Sequence record: PP892526.1
Strand: one strand, 5' to 3'
Origin: Escherichia phage vB_EcoM_I14.1
Length of the DNA: 64,000 bases
Shown: in pieces, positions 1,687 through 60,825 of the stretch
Layout of the letters: the number at the start of each line of letters is the position of its first letter
Position numbering within the stretch: position 1 is the stretch's first letter
Notes under the pieces: model-generated
The model's database searches: none
Seen by the model: only the letters and a program-made list of their open reading frames with translations
Told to the model about the DNA's origin: nothing
Position numbers and translations under genes: made by a program

Positions 1687-1701
1687 TAGAGGTAAATTGG
1701 A

Positions 1702-2148
1702 ATGGCTATGTATCAGCAATATTCCCCTAAAGACGTTGTGTGTAGCTGGAATGGTATTGCCATTGAAGGCTTTGCCCCAGACTCATTCTTACGTCTACAG
1801 AGAACATCACCACTTGTGACACCAGTTGTAGGTGCAGGTGGTCAAGTTGCTCTGACAAGAAATGCAGACAAGACAGGTACTATTGAGATTGAGCTAATGC
1901 AGACTTCTCTCTCTAATCAGATGCTTTCTGCAATTCAAGCTAAACAAGACAATATGGAACTTGAAGAAGATATCTCTTCTAACTTCGTAATCTACGACCC
2001 ATCAGGCTCTGTTCTGGCAACTGGTATTAATGCTTGGTTGCAGGAACTACCACAGATTGAACTTGGTCGTGACCAGAACTCTAAAACTTGGATTTTTGGT
2101 TGTGAGAAGCTAGACTACACTTCTACAATTCCAGCGTCAAGTGTTTAA
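1702..2148 (+). CDS. tail tube protein (by synteny)
   Basis: 148-aa ORF between sheath and chaperone genes, followed by a hairpin plus T-run. Confidence 0.5.
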   Translation: MAMYQQYSPKDVVCSWNGIAIEGFAPDSFLRLQRTSPLVTPVVGAGGQVALTRNADKTGTIEIELMQTSLSNQMLSAIQAKQDNMELEEDISSNFVIYDPSGSVLATGINAWLQELPQIELGRDQNSKTWIFGCEKLDYTSTIPASSV

Positions 2149-2159
2149 TAAATCCTATA

Positions 2160-2193
2160 AGGGGGAGACTTTAAAAGGTCTTCCCCTTTTTTG
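2160..2193 (+). terminator. intrinsic terminator candidate after tube gene
   Basis: Imperfect GC-rich hairpin gggggagac...gtcttcccc followed by TTTTTT. Confidence 0.5.
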
Positions 2194-2221
2194 TTTCTTT
2201 TAAAAGTATTAAGGAATCACA

Positions 2222-2620
2222 ATGAAAACAGAATCTAGAGTAATTAATGGTAAGAAAGTAAACATCATTCTGCTTGGGGCAAGAGATGGTATTAAGATGT
2301 CTATGAAGTTGGGTAAAATTGTTGTTCCAACATTTGCACAGATGCTGTCAAGCCTGACTGATAAAGATAAGAAAGAAGCTCCGATGGTTCCGTTTAAAGA
2401 ACTTGTTGAAGCTTGTTTTGACAGAATTGAAGAAATTAACCTTGAAGAAATGGCTACCCTGTTATTTCAAGGGGCAACTGTTGATGACTTCCCACTTAAT
2501 ATTGATACATACTTCCAAGCAAACTATGGTGAATTTATTGATTACTTAGCATTTGCGCTGGAGGCAAACTTCGGAAGTTTTTTCGAAGCAAGCATTTTCA
2601 AAAGCCTAACTTCTCAGTAA
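2222..2620 (+). CDS. tail assembly chaperone (gpG/gpE-like)
   Basis: Position between tube and tape-measure genes; canonical slippery heptamer T_TTT_TTC at 2578-2584 near its 3' end. Confidence 0.55.
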   Translation: MKTESRVINGKKVNIILLGARDGIKMSMKLGKIVVPTFAQMLSSLTDKDKKEAPMVPFKELVEACFDRIEEINLEEMATLLFQGATVDDFPLNIDTYFQANYGEFIDYLAFALEANFGSFFEASIFKSLTSQ

Positions 2621-2622
2621 AC

Positions 2623-2861
2623 ATGGGTAATACTCTACAGACACCACTGACTGATGCTGCTGTAGAGGCAACCTATGAAGAAGCAGACGAGATGAAATTT
2701 GTGCTTGCTATTTATGGTATGGAAGGGTGTAAAGAAACACTTGACCAACTCTTTGCTATGACATTCTCTGATTTATTATCATTGAGACAATTTCTTGAGA
2801 TTCAGAGGTCGTATAAAGAGGAAATTGCTTACAACGAACTTAGAAGAGCAGGAAAAATGTA

Positions 2862-2862
<1 letters not shown>
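2623..2862 (+). CDS. tail assembly chaperone frameshift extension (gpGT/E'-like)
   Basis: Lies in the -1 frame relative to 2222..2620; that frame is open from the slippery site (2581) through 2862. Confidence 0.45.
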
Positions 2863-8246
<5,384 letters not shown>

Positions 8247-44094: not shown

Positions 44095-44365
44095 AGAGAA
44101 GTGGGAAATTTTACCATTAGTGAGTGAAGGCGGTAACGGTTGTGAGATGTACATGATACGTGGTCATGTCCCAGAACCAATTGCACTTGAGATGGTAAAC
44201 AACTTTACAGATGGCTCTTACAAAGACTTAGGAGAACCAACTGTCAAGCAACAATGGGTTAAACCTGTACCAGACAGCACAGGTAACTGTAGTGTACTTT
44301 ATCACGTTGTAGACCCTGCAAAATGCAAATCTGCAATGGCAGTAACAAACGTAACTTTTGACTGA
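44087..44365 (+). CDS. hypothetical protein
   Basis: 92-aa ORF. Confidence 0.3.
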   Translation: MAKEKWEILPLVSEGGNGCEMYMIRGHVPEPIALEMVNNFTDGSYKDLGEPTVKQQWVKPVPDSTGNCSVLYHVVDPAKCKSAMAVTNVTFD

Positions 44366-45257
44366 GAGAGAAACTATGAAAACATCTATCCGTGTTACAG
44401 TTCATTCACCGACTAAAGGGACTCATGAAGAAGAGTTTAACATCATTCAATTCCCTTCTGGTGAGATTGGTGGACACTTTTCACAAGAGCTTGTTGATTT
44501 TACTGCTTATGCAGCATCATCTATCAACAATGTGATTATGATTGTGAAAGGTTATGATAAGGACACATTGTTTGCTGTGGCACTTGCTAAAGAAGCAATT
44601 GATGATTTAGTCCCTCATGACTATGCCTTAAAGACTGTCATTTTTTACTACTTACCAAATGCACGATATGACCGTCACATGTTTAAAGGTGATGCAGCAG
44701 CTTTAAAGGTTTTTGCTAAACAGGTCAATGCAATGGGGTTTGGTGCAGTCTGTGCAGTTGACCCTCACAGTTATGTACCAGATAACCTGTTTAACTGCTT
44801 CCAGAGTATTCCTCAAAAGGAAATTGCAGTCCACTATGCAAATGACCCACTGGTTGATTACTTAGTAGCCCCAGATGCAGGTGCTGCTAAGAAGATTGCA
44901 GAGACTGCTAAAGAGGTGGATAAGCCATACATCACAATGTCTAAAGTGCGTAACCTTAAAACTGGTGAAATTACTGGTATGCGAATCCTTGATGATGTTG
45001 ATTTGACAGATAAAACCGTCATGATTCTGGATGATATTTGTGATGGAGGACGAACCTTCATAGAAGCAGCTAAACATCTTCGTGAAGCAGGTGCAAAACG
45101 TGTGGAACTCTATGTAACACATGGTATCTTCTCTAAAGGTGTTGAAAACTTACTTGACAATGGTATTGACCACATCTACACTACAAACTCTTTAGGGGAA
45201 GCTAAAGACCGTGGCTTAACACATTATGGTCAAGTTACTGTAGCAAATTTGGATTAG
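44358..45257 (+). CDS. prs: ribose-phosphate pyrophosphokinase (PRPP synthetase)
   Basis: PRPP-binding loop VMILDDICDGGRTF; ~300 aa. Confidence 0.8.
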   Translation: MTERETMKTSIRVTVHSPTKGTHEEEFNIIQFPSGEIGGHFSQELVDFTAYAASSINNVIMIVKGYDKDTLFAVALAKEAIDDLVPHDYALKTVIFYYLPNARYDRHMFKGDAAALKVFAKQVNAMGFGAVCAVDPHSYVPDNLFNCFQSIPQKEIAVHYANDPLVDYLVAPDAGAAKKIAETAKEVDKPYITMSKVRNLKTGEITGMRILDDVDLTDKTVMILDDICDGGRTFIEAAKHLREAGAKRVELYVTHGIFSKGVENLLDNGIDHIYTTNSLGEAKDRGLTHYGQVTVANLD

Positions 45258-45265
45258 GTATTAAA

Positions 45266-45757
45266 ATGGATAAGGGTTACTTCGAAAAATACCTAATATA
45301 CGAACCGGAGACAGGTTTACTAATTTGGAAAGTAACCCTTTGCAATACCGCTATTGCTGGTAATGTTGCTGGCACAAGGTCTAAGAAGGGTTATATCCAA
45401 GTCCAGATAAATAAGAAGAGGTACTATGCACATAATATTGCATGGATTATGTCTGGAGGTGAGATACCAAGTGGATATGAGATAGACCACATAGACCTTG
45501 ATAAATCTAATAATAAGTTGGAGAATTTAAGACTTAGCACAAAGTCACAAAATCAGAGGAATAGGGGTATATACAAGAATAATAAAACTGGTGTGAAGGG
45601 TGTAAGTTTTTGTAAACAAACAGGTCTTTACAAAGCAAGAGTCATGCTTTACCATAAAGAATACTTTTGTGGAAGATTTAAAACGGTAGAAGAAGCAAAA
45701 GAAGCTGTAATTAAAAAGCGAATAGAACTTCATGGTGAGTTTGCAAGACATAACTAA
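45266..45757 (+). CDS. HNH homing endonuclease with AP2 DNA-binding domain
   Basis: HNH_3-type YEIDHIDLDKSNNKLENLRL; AP2-like GVKGVSF...YKARV...GRFKTVEEAKEA. Confidence 0.7.
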   Translation: MDKGYFEKYLIYEPETGLLIWKVTLCNTAIAGNVAGTRSKKGYIQVQINKKRYYAHNIAWIMSGGEIPSGYEIDHIDLDKSNNKLENLRLSTKSQNQRNRGIYKNNKTGVKGVSFCKQTGLYKARVMLYHKEYFCGRFKTVEEAKEAVIKKRIELHGEFARHN

Positions 45758-60282: not shown

Positions 60283-60825
60283 ATGAAATGCTTTCACGGT
60301 ACTACTCAAGAAAACTTCGTCAACCTGATTAATAACGGTGATAAACCATCAGGCGCATGGAATTGTTCGGATATGGATGGCAATTTTTACGTTTATCCAG
60401 AAAATAAAATCTATGGCGACGATGAGGAAGAAATAATCTCTGAAGGCATTCAACAAGCTTTAGGTAATGCCACTATAACGGCAGCTTTTCAGATGAAAAC
60501 TCAAAACATTGTTATCTTGGAACTTGATATTCCAGAAGATGAGTTGAATGATGATTATTCTTGTGATAATATGTCGAGTGTGGCAAGTTTTACAGAGTAT
60601 TTTGATATAAGCTGGATTAAAAAGGTTTATATCACTGAATTTAATGCTATGTTTTCACCTTTTTGTCTTCCTTCACTGGATAACCCGAACTTAAACTATC
60701 TTGATGAGTCTCTGGAACTTCTCGCTAAAAGTGTTCAGCAATCGGACAGTATTCAGGTTTTTTGTGACATCATGGATACACTAACAGGAAACATTGCAGA
60801 AGAGGATTTGAAGAGTTTTTTCTAA
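60283..60825 (+). CDS. early acidic protein, hypothetical (N-terminal FHGT motif)
   Basis: Hairpin-RBS cassette upstream; FHGT at residues 4-7; acidic. Confidence 0.4.
   Translation: MKCFHGTTQENFVNLINNGDKPSGAWNCSDMDGNFYVYPENKIYGDDEEEIISEGIQQALGNATITAAFQMKTQNIVILELDIPEDELNDDYSCDNMSSVASFTEYFDISWIKKVYITEFNAMFSPFCLPSLDNPNLNYLDESLELLAKSVQQSDSIQVFCDIMDTLTGNIAEEDLKSFF

What the first reader, a model, noticed from the sequence alone, without database searches (positions are those of the whole stretch)
2222..2862. Programmed -1 ribosomal frameshift in the tail assembly chaperone
The 132-aa ORF carries a canonical X_XXY_YYZ slippery heptamer T_TTT_TTC at 2578-2584. The -1 frame is open from 2581 through the 79-aa ORF ending at 2862, which then overlaps the tape-measure start. 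This matches the conserved chaperone frameshift (lambda G/GT, P2 E/E') and would give a fusion of roughly 200 aa.
Basis: partly seen in the sequence, partly recalled or inferred. Interest (0 to 1): 0.45.

Follow-up and report, generated by a model that had tools for sequence, protein, structure and literature searches.

The report
Known tail-chaperone ribosomal frameshift, Felix O1-type phage
The window is a Felix O1-like E. coli phage, and the flagged site is the usual -1 ribosomal frameshift that makes a long and a short tail assembly chaperone; it is real and well supported, but it has already been annotated and published for this phage group.

Summary
TTTTTTC lies at 2578-2584 in the T_TTT_TTC register of the 132-aa ORF (2222-2620). 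The -1 frame is open from 2542 to the stop at 2860-2862, which overlaps the tape-measure ATG (TAATG). The predicted fusion is 213 aa.

- The gene sits between the tube and tape-measure genes and matches Pfam Phage_TAC_15.
- The heptamer is invariant, synonymous sites included, in all 17 frameshift-type lineages examined (28-100% aa identity).
- In every one the -1 frame stays open 81-108 codons.
- Several relatives have no start codon until after conserved -1-frame residues.
- The ORF2 ATG has no Shine-Dalgarno and is ATA in one relative.
- A Buttiauxella prophage encodes the long form as one in-frame 201-aa gene. It aligns across the predicted junction, and its short gene has lost the heptamer.

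It is not new. RefSeq Salmonella phage Mushroom (same genus) and Citrobacter phage Michonne carry the joined CDS. The Moogle and Michonne papers (2015) and a 2025 paper on Andersonviridae describe it. No protein-level proof was found for this group.

Additions from this work:
- A strong GGAGG 13 nt upstream, a possible dnaX-like stimulator.
- No 3' structure at canonical spacing in the window.
- A conserved hairpin at 2633-2667 of unknown role.

The parts
2159..2198 (+). Rho-independent terminator-like hairpin plus T-tract between the tube gene and the chaperone gene (context: it probably lowers read-through into the chaperone and tape-measure genes)
   Evidence: 13-pair stem, 6 GC pairs, then TTTTGTTTCT. 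The homologous site is annotated as a terminator in wV8 and Michonne.
2222..2620 (+). TAC-N (gpG-like) ORF, 132 aa, the zero-frame product
   Evidence: Pfam PF21822 Phage_TAC_15, E 1.9e-19. phrog_1613 'tail assembly chaperone', E 7e-49. SD AAGGA upstream, dG -6.1.
2560..2564 (+). Internal Shine-Dalgarno-like GGAGG with a 13-nt spacer to the heptamer; a candidate 5' frameshift stimulator (inferred)
   Evidence: Anti-SD duplex dG -9.3 kcal/mol. That is stronger than 90% of gene-start SDs in the window, and only 0.8% of 20-nt windows are as strong. SD stimulators of -1 shifts act at 9-14 nt (PMC5009743). Present in 13 of 18 frameshift-type relatives/lineages examined, absent in 5. GAG is preferred at that Glu codon (9 of 11), unlike other Glu columns.
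2542..2617 (+). Overlap window in which a -1 shift yields the fusion (from the last -1-frame stop to the ORF1 stop)
   Evidence: It contains only one canonical in-phase heptamer.
2578..2584 (+). Slippery heptamer T_TTT_TTC (P-site TTT, A-site TTC)
   Evidence: It is invariant in all 17 frameshift-type lineages examined. In the 15-lineage codon table the synonymous sites are also fixed: Ser codon AGT x13 or TCT x2, TTT 15/15, TTC 15/15. U_UU.U_UU.C belongs to the efficient H_HH.U_UU.Y class in E. coli (PMC4066793).
2584..2862 (+). -1-frame extension (T-like domain), 92 codons plus stop. It includes the annotated 79-aa ORF2 (2623-2862).
   Evidence: phrog_4963 'tail assembly chaperone', E 2.8e-55. 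The -1-frame peptide is homologous in relatives upstream of any start codon. The ORF2 ATG at 2623 has no SD, dG +0.7.
2222..2862 (+). Predicted TAC-NC (gpGT-like) fusion, 213 aa: 2222..2584 joined to 2584..2862 with one base re-read
   Evidence: The homologous coordinates are annotated as a 2-piece joined CDS in RefSeq NC_041923.1 (Mushroom) and KT001916 (Michonne, 'ribosomal slippage'). It aligns across the junction to an in-frame 201-aa gene of a Buttiauxella prophage.
2633..2667 (+). Conserved RNA hairpin inside the -1-frame extension, 48 nt after the heptamer; role unknown
   Evidence: MFE -13.3 kcal/mol, z -3.86, 0 of 200 shuffles as stable. Relatives give z -3.2 to -4.2. Three pairs show compensatory double changes among Felixouna-, Moogle- and Suspvirus sequences.
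2862..5090 (+). Tape measure protein gene, 742 aa; its start overlaps the fusion's stop (TAATG)
   Evidence: Pfam TMP_3, E 2.3e-17. phrog_4036, E 0.

Best explanation
The window is a Felixounavirus (100% identical to Escherichia phage vB_EcoM_D4). Most ribosomes translating the chaperone gene from 2222 stop at 2618-2620 and make the 132-aa short chaperone (TAC-N, gpG-like). A minority slip back one base on T_TTT_TTC (2578-2584), with tRNA-Phe in both the P and A sites. They then read CGA at 2584 and continue in the -1 frame to 2860-2862. That makes a 213-aa long form (TAC-NC, gpGT-like) sharing residues 1-121 with the short form. By analogy with lambda G/GT and P2 E/E+E', many short copies and a few long copies coat the tape measure protein encoded immediately downstream. 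The -1-encoded domain recruits the tube protein, and neither form stays in the virion. Shown here: the sequence signals, their conservation, and the existence of an in-frame fusion homolog. Inferred: that slippage occurs, the ratio of products, and the chaperone function. The shift probably runs at low efficiency on the heptamer alone, possibly helped by the GGAGG 13 nt upstream (dnaX-like). No 3' structure sits at canonical spacing in this genus.
For: Identity and synteny: sheath 334-1686, tube 1702-2148, TAC, TMP. The heptamer is in phase and the -1 frame is open for 94 codons, against a median of 7 for 50 other in-phase heptamers. In all 17 frameshift-type lineages examined, down to 28% aa identity, TTTTTTC is invariant and the -1 frame stays open 81-108 codons, ending at the start of the next gene, the tape measure gene wherever I checked it. 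In the 15-lineage codon table the Ser codon is AGT or TCT (always ending in T), with TTT 15/15 and TTC 15/15, while other conserved Phe columns vary. In the Erwinia phages and in L036, L039 and L050 the first -1-frame start codon lies more than 35 codons (39-82) after the heptamer. In the Erwinia phages it lies after the conserved ...YG.E.CKET motif, so that motif can only be reached by frameshifting. In L058 a -1-frame TAG directly abuts the heptamer, so the shift cannot be upstream of it. The ORF2 ATG has no SD (dG +0.7, weaker than 98% of gene starts) and is ATA in the Felixounavirus contig L021. Rosetta-stone case: the Buttiauxella noackiae prophage has a short TAC without the heptamer (TCA TTC TTC). 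It also has a separate in-frame 201-aa gene that aligns to fusion residues 81-208 across the junction, E 6e-13. Two distant members have strong stem-loops starting 6 nt after the heptamer: L049 z -5.8 and L050 z -2.8. Such stem-loops act on ribosomes. Prior annotation and publication. Felix O1 virion proteomics lists Gp63, Gp64 and Gp67 but not Gp65 or Gp66, which are the two chaperone ORFs by position. That fits non-structural chaperones.
Against: I found no protein-level demonstration of the fusion in any Ounavirinae phage. The window has no stimulatory structure within 56-70 nt of the heptamer (z +0.9 and +0.6). Efficiency is therefore unknown and could be very low. In Sf14 (Mooglevirus), mass spectrometry of pelleted particles reported the ORF2 homolog gp42 but not the ORF1 homolog gp41. 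A G-T fusion alone would not predict this, although the preparation was crude and no peptide data are held. The viral-contig search used the peptide pattern NF[GS]SFFE, which favours members that keep Ser-Phe-Phe but does not fix codon choice.
Confidence: 0.87

Rival explanations
1. The two ORFs are independent genes. ORF2 (79 aa) is translated on its own from ATG 2623, by termination-reinitiation two bases after the ORF1 stop, and no fusion is made.
For: The ATG lies 2 nt after the TAA. The window's own GenBank record and most Felixounavirus records annotate two separate CDS. Sf14 particle mass spectrometry listed gp42 (ORF2 homolog) but not gp41.
Against: There is no SD before 2623 (dG +0.7). 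The ATG is not conserved in position among relatives, is absent for 39-82 codons after the heptamer in the Erwinia phages, L036, L039 and L050, and is ATA in L021. -1-frame residues upstream of any start codon are conserved. This reading does not explain the invariant heptamer at synonymous sites. It also does not explain the in-frame G+T gene in Buttiauxella, whose short gene has lost the heptamer. In the Moogle and Susp lineages the ATG sits inside the 5' arm of a stable hairpin.
Confidence: 0.06
2. The frame change is made by RNA polymerase, not the ribosome. Transcriptional slippage on the T6 run deletes one U in a fraction of mRNAs, and those mRNAs encode the fusion directly.
For: The site is a homopolymeric T run, and sequence alone cannot fully separate the two mechanisms. 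UUUUUUU and AAAAAAA runs are known to give mRNA indels (PMC4066793).
Against: The run is only 6 nt and its length and phase are invariant in all 17 frameshift-type lineages examined; it is never lengthened. From my own knowledge, bacterial RNAP slippage usually needs about 7-9 or more identical bases. The accompanying signals act on ribosomes: an SD-like GGAGG at 13 nt and 3' stem-loops 6 nt downstream in L049 and L050. The terminator-like hairpin just 5' of the run is not significant (z -0.4 to 0).
Confidence: 0.05
3. The heptamer and the open -1 frame are a coincidence with no recoding. ORF2 is non-coding or a spurious ORF.
For: An AT-rich genome has many T runs. No experiment is available.
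Against: ORF2 matches a conserved phage family (phrog_4963, E 2.8e-55). The 94-codon open -1 frame compares with a median of 7. Conservation spans all 17 frameshift-type lineages examined. The ORF2 homolog was detected by mass spectrometry in Sf14.
Confidence: 0.01

Closest known systems
Salmonella phage Mushroom (Felixounavirus, RefSeq NC_041923.1) and Citrobacter phages Michonne and Moogle (Mooglevirus): annotated tape-measure chaperone frameshift
   Same: The genes are orthologous (96.9% and about 81-82% nt identity). They share the same TTTTTTC heptamer and the same 641-nt joined CDS giving a fusion of about 213 aa. The papers PMC4591319 and PMC4319497 state the -1 frameshift.
   Different: Nothing substantive differs. 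The window's own record (PP886228.1) and most Felixounavirus records simply list two separate CDS. Those annotations are predictions, not experiments.
TAC-N/TAC-NC -1 frameshift of Vandenendeviridae and Andersonviridae (phage Adele paper, PMC12846349)
   Same: That paper reports an invariant GTTTTT motif near the 3' end of TAC-N and an uninterrupted -1 frame. It finds the same motif in 231 Andersonviridae phages, the family that contains Felixounavirus.
   Different: That study was also purely comparative. It did not report the upstream GGAGG, the lack of 3' structure, the 2633-2667 hairpin or the in-frame Buttiauxella homolog.
Phage P2 E / E+E'
   Same: P2 is a myovirus whose chaperone gene lies between the tube and tape-measure genes. 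Its -1 shift occurs on a T-run heptamer (TTTTTTG) with no 3' hairpin (PMC3091744).
   Different: The last base differs (G versus C). The products are 91 and 142 aa, against 132 and 213 aa here. No sequence homology to P2 E was found or tested; the window protein falls in Pfam Phage_TAC_15.
Phage lambda G / GT
   Same: The logic is the same: short and long forms share an N-terminus, are made at a fixed low ratio (30:1), bind the tape measure and recruit the tail tube, and are absent from virions (PMC5009743).
   Different: Lambda is a siphovirus, its heptamer is G_GGA_AAG, and no detectable sequence similarity was found. Function here is inferred, not shown.
E. coli dnaX -1 frameshift signal (5' SD + heptamer + 3' stem-loop)
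   Same: An SD-like element lies within the 9-14 nt window upstream of a heptamer.
   Different: The window has no 3' stem-loop at 5-9 nt. The SD is absent from 5 of 18 related lineages, so it is optional at most. The gene is unrelated.
T4-like phages with separate short and long TAC genes (Vladimirov et al. 2022, as summarised in PMC10885494)
   Same: The Buttiauxella prophage relative (L057) uses this arrangement: a short TAC plus a separate in-frame long TAC.
   Different: The window itself keeps the overlapping two-frame arrangement with a heptamer.

Membership tests
Tail assembly chaperone with programmed -1 frameshift (lambda G/GT type; Xu, Hendrix & Duda 2004) | Gene pair lies between the major tail (tube) gene and the tape measure gene | tested here: met
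   Tube 1702-2148 (PF11681, phrog_280), ORF1 2222-2620, ORF2 2623-2862, TMP 2862-5090 (PF20155).
Tail assembly chaperone with programmed -1 frameshift (lambda G/GT type; Xu, Hendrix & Duda 2004) | Downstream ORF is in the -1 frame, overlaps the 3' end of the upstream ORF, and lacks its own translation signals | tested here: met
   -1 frame open 2542-2859. ATG 2623 has no SD, dG +0.7. The start codon is not conserved and is ATA in L021.
Tail assembly chaperone with programmed -1 frameshift (lambda G/GT type; Xu, Hendrix & Duda 2004) | In-phase slippery X_XXY_YYZ heptamer inside the overlap | tested here: met
   T_TTT_TTC at 2578-2584 is the only canonical in-phase heptamer in ORF1. The motif class is efficient in E. 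coli.
Tail assembly chaperone with programmed -1 frameshift (lambda G/GT type; Xu, Hendrix & Duda 2004) | Site and -1 ORF are conserved in diverged relatives, including at synonymous positions | tested here: met
   All 17 frameshift-type lineages examined (28-100% aa identity) keep TTTTTTC and an open -1 frame of 81-108 codons. Erwinia phages match the window at DNA level only in a 41-nt island around the site (92.7% identity).
Tail assembly chaperone with programmed -1 frameshift (lambda G/GT type; Xu, Hendrix & Duda 2004) | Sequence membership in a recognised TAC family | tested here: met
   PF21822 Phage_TAC_15 scores 70.9 bits against a cut-off of 22. phrog_1613 and phrog_4963 are both 'tail assembly chaperone'. 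No PDB sequence relative was found.
Tail assembly chaperone with programmed -1 frameshift (lambda G/GT type; Xu, Hendrix & Duda 2004) | Two products with a common N-terminus are made at a fixed ratio | not testable with these tools
   Only indirect evidence is available: an in-frame 201-aa homolog of the fusion in Buttiauxella, and the ORF2 homolog detected by mass spectrometry in Sf14.
Tail assembly chaperone with programmed -1 frameshift (lambda G/GT type; Xu, Hendrix & Duda 2004) | Both products are required for tail assembly and absent from the mature virion | not testable with these tools
   The Felix O1 virion proteome lacks Gp65 and Gp66, which are the two ORFs by position. The Sf14 crude particle preparation lists gp42. 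The evidence is mixed and no genetics are available.
dnaX-type tripartite -1 frameshift signal | SD-like sequence 9-14 nt 5' of the heptamer | tested here: met
   GGAGG at 2560-2564 with a 13-nt spacer, dG -9.3, top 0.8% of 20-nt windows. Spacing rule from PMC5009743. Its function is untested.
dnaX-type tripartite -1 frameshift signal | Stable stem-loop or pseudoknot 5-9 nt 3' of the heptamer | tested here: not met
   2585-2640 folds at -3.4 kcal/mol, z +0.91. 2585-2654 gives z +0.64. The feature is met only in the distant members L049 and L050. No frameshift element of Rfam matched, and the five weak matches in 2100-3000 were all far below their gathering scores.
Transcriptional slippage site | Long homopolymer run (typically at least 7-9 nt) whose length, not phase, matters | tested here: not met
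   The run is exactly T6 and is phase-locked in every frameshift-type lineage. The run-length threshold is from my own knowledge.

The most novel reading that the evidence does not exclude
In Felixounavirus the chaperone frameshift may run without any 3' structure. It would be tuned instead by a dnaX-like internal Shine-Dalgarno (GGAGG, 13 nt upstream). The conserved hairpin at 2633-2667, which abuts or buries the internal AUG, would control whether a T-only polypeptide is made. The Sf14 report of the ORF2 homolog, but not the ORF1 homolog, in particle preparations would then mean that a T-domain product associates with tails, unlike lambda.
Probability: 0.15. Interest if true: 0.3.

Novelty: already known. 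Interest (0 to 1): 0.12.

Why it matters
The practical value is for annotation. The window's own GenBank record and most of the roughly 300 related records list two separate 'tail assembly chaperone' CDS. Erwinia and Pectobacterium phage records leave the -1 ORF unannotated or call a 37-aa fragment. A joined 213-aa CDS, as in phages Mushroom and Michonne, would be the better annotation. Biologically it adds one more well-conserved case of G/GT-type recoding in a therapeutically used phage genus. It also offers a comparative series for asking how frameshift efficiency is set: heptamer alone, with a 5' SD, with a 3' hairpin, or replaced by two genes. It does not open a new question.

Tried and rejected
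- **Downstream stimulator.** I folded 56, 70 and 120 nt after the heptamer. There is no structure at canonical spacing (z +0.9, +0.6, -1.4).
- **Upstream hairpin.** The terminator scan flagged 2558-2574 plus the T-run, which could stimulate transcriptional slippage. Folding 14 lineages gave z near 0, so I rejected it.
- **Rfam scan of 2100-3000.** Only sub-threshold chance matches, all around the terminator.
- **PDB sequence search with the fusion.** No relative found. NCBIfam gave no hit.
- **Large protein search with the fusion.** It returned only short forms of about 132 aa (60% coverage) and no annotated in-frame fusion among 89 hits. It did lead to the Buttiauxella locus.
- **Other in-phase heptamers in the window.** The one at 45245 (A_AAT_TTG, 170 open codons) is just the next gene, 45266-45757, with its own ATG. 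The one at 60816 (TTTTTTC) has only 10 open -1 codons.
- **Collision with a ribosome terminating at the ORF1 stop as stimulator.** Rejected, because the distance from heptamer to stop varies from 13 to about 29 codons among lineages.
- **A second shift site, U_UUC at 2596-2599.** It is possible in principle but conserved in only some lineages, so I did not favour it.
- **Virion proteomics of VpaE1.** The table is an image and could not be read.
- **Structure prediction.** Not run, because relatives' -1-frame sequences could not be submitted under the tool's input rule and a single-sequence model would be weak.

Full report
**What the window is.** Megablast of 1700-5100 gives a 100% match to Escherichia phage vB_EcoM_D4 (PP886228.1). 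It also gives 95-99% matches to about 190 Felix O1-like phages of E. coli, Salmonella and Shigella. The local gene order is typical of a contractile tail module:
- tail sheath, 334-1686
- tail tube, 1702-2148
- a 132-aa ORF, 2222-2620
- a 79-aa ORF, 2623-2862
- a 742-aa tape measure protein, 2862-5090

**The observation.**
- The sequence at 2578-2584 is TTTTTTC. ORF1 codons are AGT(2576-78) TTT(2579-81) TTC(2582-84), so the register is T_TTT_TTC.
- The -1 frame has a stop at 2539-2541 and none again until 2860-2862. It is therefore open from 2542 through the annotated ORF2.
- The TAA at 2860-2862 shares its last base with the tape-measure ATG (TAATG).
- After a tandem -1 slip the next codon read is CGA at 2584. 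The product is M1-F121 plus 92 residues, 213 aa.
- This is not a chance pattern. ORFs of at least 100 aa in the window hold 50 in-phase X_XXW_WWZ heptamers, with a median -1 open length of 7 codons. Only this one (94 codons) and one trivial case at 45245 exceed 50.

**Homology.** ORF1 matches Pfam PF21822 Phage_TAC_15 (E 1.9e-19) and phrog_1613. ORF2 matches phrog_4963. Both PHROG families are labelled tail assembly chaperone. The fusion has no sequence relative in the PDB.

**Conservation.** I collected relatives from GenBank phages, IMG/VR contigs and public assemblies. They represent 17 frameshift-type lineages, from 100% down to 28% amino-acid identity. They include Mooglevirus, Suspvirus, Kolesnikvirus (Erwinia), Pectobacterium phage Wc4 and several metagenomic groups.
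- Every one has TTTTTTC in the same phase. In every one the -1 frame opens within 20 codons upstream and stays open 81-108 codons, ending at the start of the next gene, which is the tape measure gene wherever I checked it.
- Synonymous sites are fixed in the 15-lineage codon table. The Ser codon is AGT in 13 lineages and TCT in 2, so two codon families both end in T. The first Phe is TTT in 15 of 15 and the second is TTC in 15 of 15. Three other conserved Phe columns in the same alignment use both codons.
- Erwinia phages are too diverged to match the window by blastn, except for a 41-nt island at 2567-2607 (92.7% identity) centred on the site.
- One search pattern was the peptide NF[GS]SFFE. 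That favours members that keep Ser-Phe-Phe but does not constrain codon choice.

**Is ORF2 translated on its own?**
- The ATG at 2623 has no Shine-Dalgarno. Its anti-SD duplex dG is +0.7 kcal/mol, weaker than 98% of gene starts in the window and weaker than the median random ATG.
- The start is not conserved. In the Moogle and Susp lineages the first ATG is elsewhere. In the Erwinia phages, L036, L039 and L050 the first start codon in the -1 frame lies 39-82 codons after the heptamer. In the Erwinia phages it lies after the motif ...YG.E.CKET, which is conserved with the window.
- GenBank records for those phages leave a gap there or call a 37-aa fragment.
- One Felixounavirus contig (L021) has ATA instead of the ATG.
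- In L058 a -1-frame TAG directly abuts the heptamer (ggTAGTTTTTTC). That fixes the 5' limit of the shift window at the heptamer itself.

**A natural in-frame fusion.** A homolog in the Buttiauxella noackiae chromosome (P0084) sits in a prophage tail module.
- There a 126-aa short TAC is followed by a separate 201-aa gene and then the tape measure gene.
- The 201-aa protein aligns to residues 81-208 of the window's predicted fusion, continuously across the junction (E 6e-13).
- Its short gene encodes the same Gly-Ser-Phe-Phe as GGC TCA TTC TTC. It has no slippery heptamer, and its -1 frame is closed.
- This is the arrangement described for T4-like phages. It shows that a G+T single polypeptide is a real protein in this family. 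It also shows that the heptamer's synonymous sites are held only where recoding is needed.

**Mechanism: ribosome or polymerase?**
- U_UU.U_UU.C belongs to the H_HH.U_UU.Y class, among the most shift-prone heptamers in E. coli, and is used by IS elements (PMC4066793).
- The window has no stable structure within 56-70 nt downstream (z +0.91 and +0.64). The same is reported for P2 E/E+E' (TTTTTTG; PMC3091744).
- Two distant family members do have strong stem-loops that start 6 nt after the heptamer: L049 (-27.9 kcal/mol, z -5.8) and L050 (z -2.8). This is the classic ribosomal stimulator geometry.
- Upstream, GGAGG at 2560-2564 lies 13 nt from the heptamer. Its predicted pairing to the anti-SD (-9.3 kcal/mol) is stronger than 90% of true gene-start SDs in the window and is matched by only 0.8% of 20-nt windows.
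- SD stimulators of -1 shifts act at 9-14 nt (PMC5009743). An SD-like element at 11-13 nt is present in 13 of 18 frameshift-type relatives/lineages examined and absent in 5. GAG is preferred at that Glu codon (9 of 11), unlike other Glu columns.
- I therefore treat the SD as a plausible but optional stimulator.
- A terminator-like hairpin immediately 5' of the T run, which could have favoured RNA polymerase slippage, is not significant in any of 14 lineages.
- The invariant T6 length and phase add to this, so I rate transcriptional slippage as unlikely. It is not excluded.

**Prior knowledge.**
- The same frameshift is annotated as a two-piece CDS at the homologous coordinates in RefSeq NC_041923.1, Salmonella phage Mushroom, of the same genus (173..813 of L052, 641 nt).
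- It is annotated as 'ribosomal slippage' in Citrobacter phage Michonne.
- It is stated in the Michonne and Moogle genome announcements.
- A 2025 paper on Pseudomonas phage Adele reports a conserved -1 frameshift with an invariant GTTTTT motif in Vandenendeviridae. It finds the same motif in 231 Andersonviridae TAC-N genes.
- The window's own record, wV8 RefSeq and most others list two separate CDS.
- All of this is prediction. I found no experimental proof of the fusion.

**Experimental hints.**
- Felix O1 virion proteomics lists Gp63, Gp64 and Gp67 but not Gp65 or Gp66, the two chaperone ORFs by position. That fits non-structural chaperones.
- For Sf14 (Mooglevirus), mass spectrometry of pelleted particles lists gp42 (ORF2 homolog) as detected and gp41 (ORF1 homolog) as not detected. 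This shows the -1 ORF is translated. The fusion model alone does not explain the absence of G-part peptides. The preparation was crude and no peptide-level data are held.

**An extra feature.** A 12-pair hairpin at 2633-2667, inside the -1 extension, is locally significant (z -3.86, 0 of 200 shuffles). It is conserved in the Moogle and Susp lineages (z -3.2 to -4.2). Three pairs keep pairing through double changes, partly at synonymous sites. It starts 48 nt after the heptamer, too far for a canonical stimulator. In the Moogle and Susp lineages the first -1-frame AUG lies in its 5' arm. Its role is unknown. Masking of internal initiation is one guess.

**Verdict.** The mechanism is a heptamer-driven -1 ribosomal frameshift giving a 132-aa and a 213-aa chaperone. 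It is already known for this phage group, so interest is low. The value lies in correcting annotation and in the minor mechanistic notes above.

Noticed in passing
window 2633-2667: A conserved 12-pair RNA hairpin lies inside the -1-frame extension, 48 nt after the heptamer and 13 nt after the ORF1 stop (z -3.86). Three pairs show compensatory changes among Felixouna-, Moogle- and Suspvirus sequences. In the Moogle and Susp lineages the first -1-frame AUG lies in its 5' arm. Its function is unknown.
   Followed up: partly
window 2560-2564: A strong internal Shine-Dalgarno-like GGAGG lies 13 nt upstream of the heptamer (dG -9.3, top 0.8% of windows). It is present in 13 of 18 related frameshift-type lineages and may be a dnaX-like 5' stimulator.
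   Followed up: partly
window 2159-2198: A strong terminator-like hairpin plus T-tract lies between the tube gene and the chaperone gene. It is annotated as a Rho-independent terminator in wV8 and Michonne, and it probably sets lower expression of the chaperone and tape-measure genes relative to sheath and tube.
   Followed up: partly
L057 6001-6986 (Buttiauxella noackiae JPRU01000001.1): A chromosomal prophage tail module has a short TAC without a slippery heptamer and a separate in-frame 201-aa long TAC that aligns across the window's predicted junction. This is the T4-like two-gene solution within the Phage_TAC_15 family.
   Followed up: yes
L049 1675-1744 and L050 1648-1717: Distant metagenomic family members carry strong stem-loops starting 6 nt after the same TTTTTTC heptamer (z -5.8 and -2.8). 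The window and its closer relatives carry none. Stimulator type varies within one family.
   Followed up: partly
L021 (IMGVR_UViG_3300045988_004167), position homologous to window 2623: A Felixounavirus contig has ATA instead of the ORF2 ATG. This is a natural loss of the supposed ORF2 start codon.
   Followed up: no
L058 2830-2839 (Logan SRR33317146 contig): A -1-frame TAG directly abuts the heptamer (ggTAGTTTTTTC), so in that relative the -1 frame opens exactly at the slippery site.
   Followed up: yes
Shigella phage Sf14, L055 301-938 (NC_042075.1 29825-30462): Published mass spectrometry of pelleted particles lists the ORF2 homolog (gp42) as detected but the ORF1 homolog (gp41) as not detected (PMC11821841 Table 1). 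A simple G-T fusion would not predict this, and lambda's chaperones are absent from virions. Raw data are in MassIVE MSV000096931.
   Followed up: partly
L003 1570-1805, L007 1570-1805, L004 1618-1852, L054 870-1105: GenBank records of Erwinia and Pectobacterium Ounavirinae phages leave the -1-frame chaperone extension unannotated, or call only a 37-aa ORF in phiEa104. Some Felixounavirus records label the chaperone ORFs 'head closure protein', 'Tc1 tail completion protein' or 'tape measure protein'.
   Followed up: partly
window 45245-45251 and 60816-60822: There are two other in-phase slippery heptamers near ORF ends. A_AAT_TTG lies 3 codons before the stop of 44358-45257, and the next gene in the -1 frame has its own ATG at 45266. 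TTTTTTC lies 2 codons before the stop of 60283-60825, with only 10 open -1 codons. Neither looks like recoding.
   Followed up: yes
window 1-64000: TTTTTTC occurs 2 times on the + strand and 11 times on the - strand. ARAGORN finds no tRNA genes in this 64-kb window, although Felix O1-like genomes carry about 22 elsewhere.
   Followed up: no
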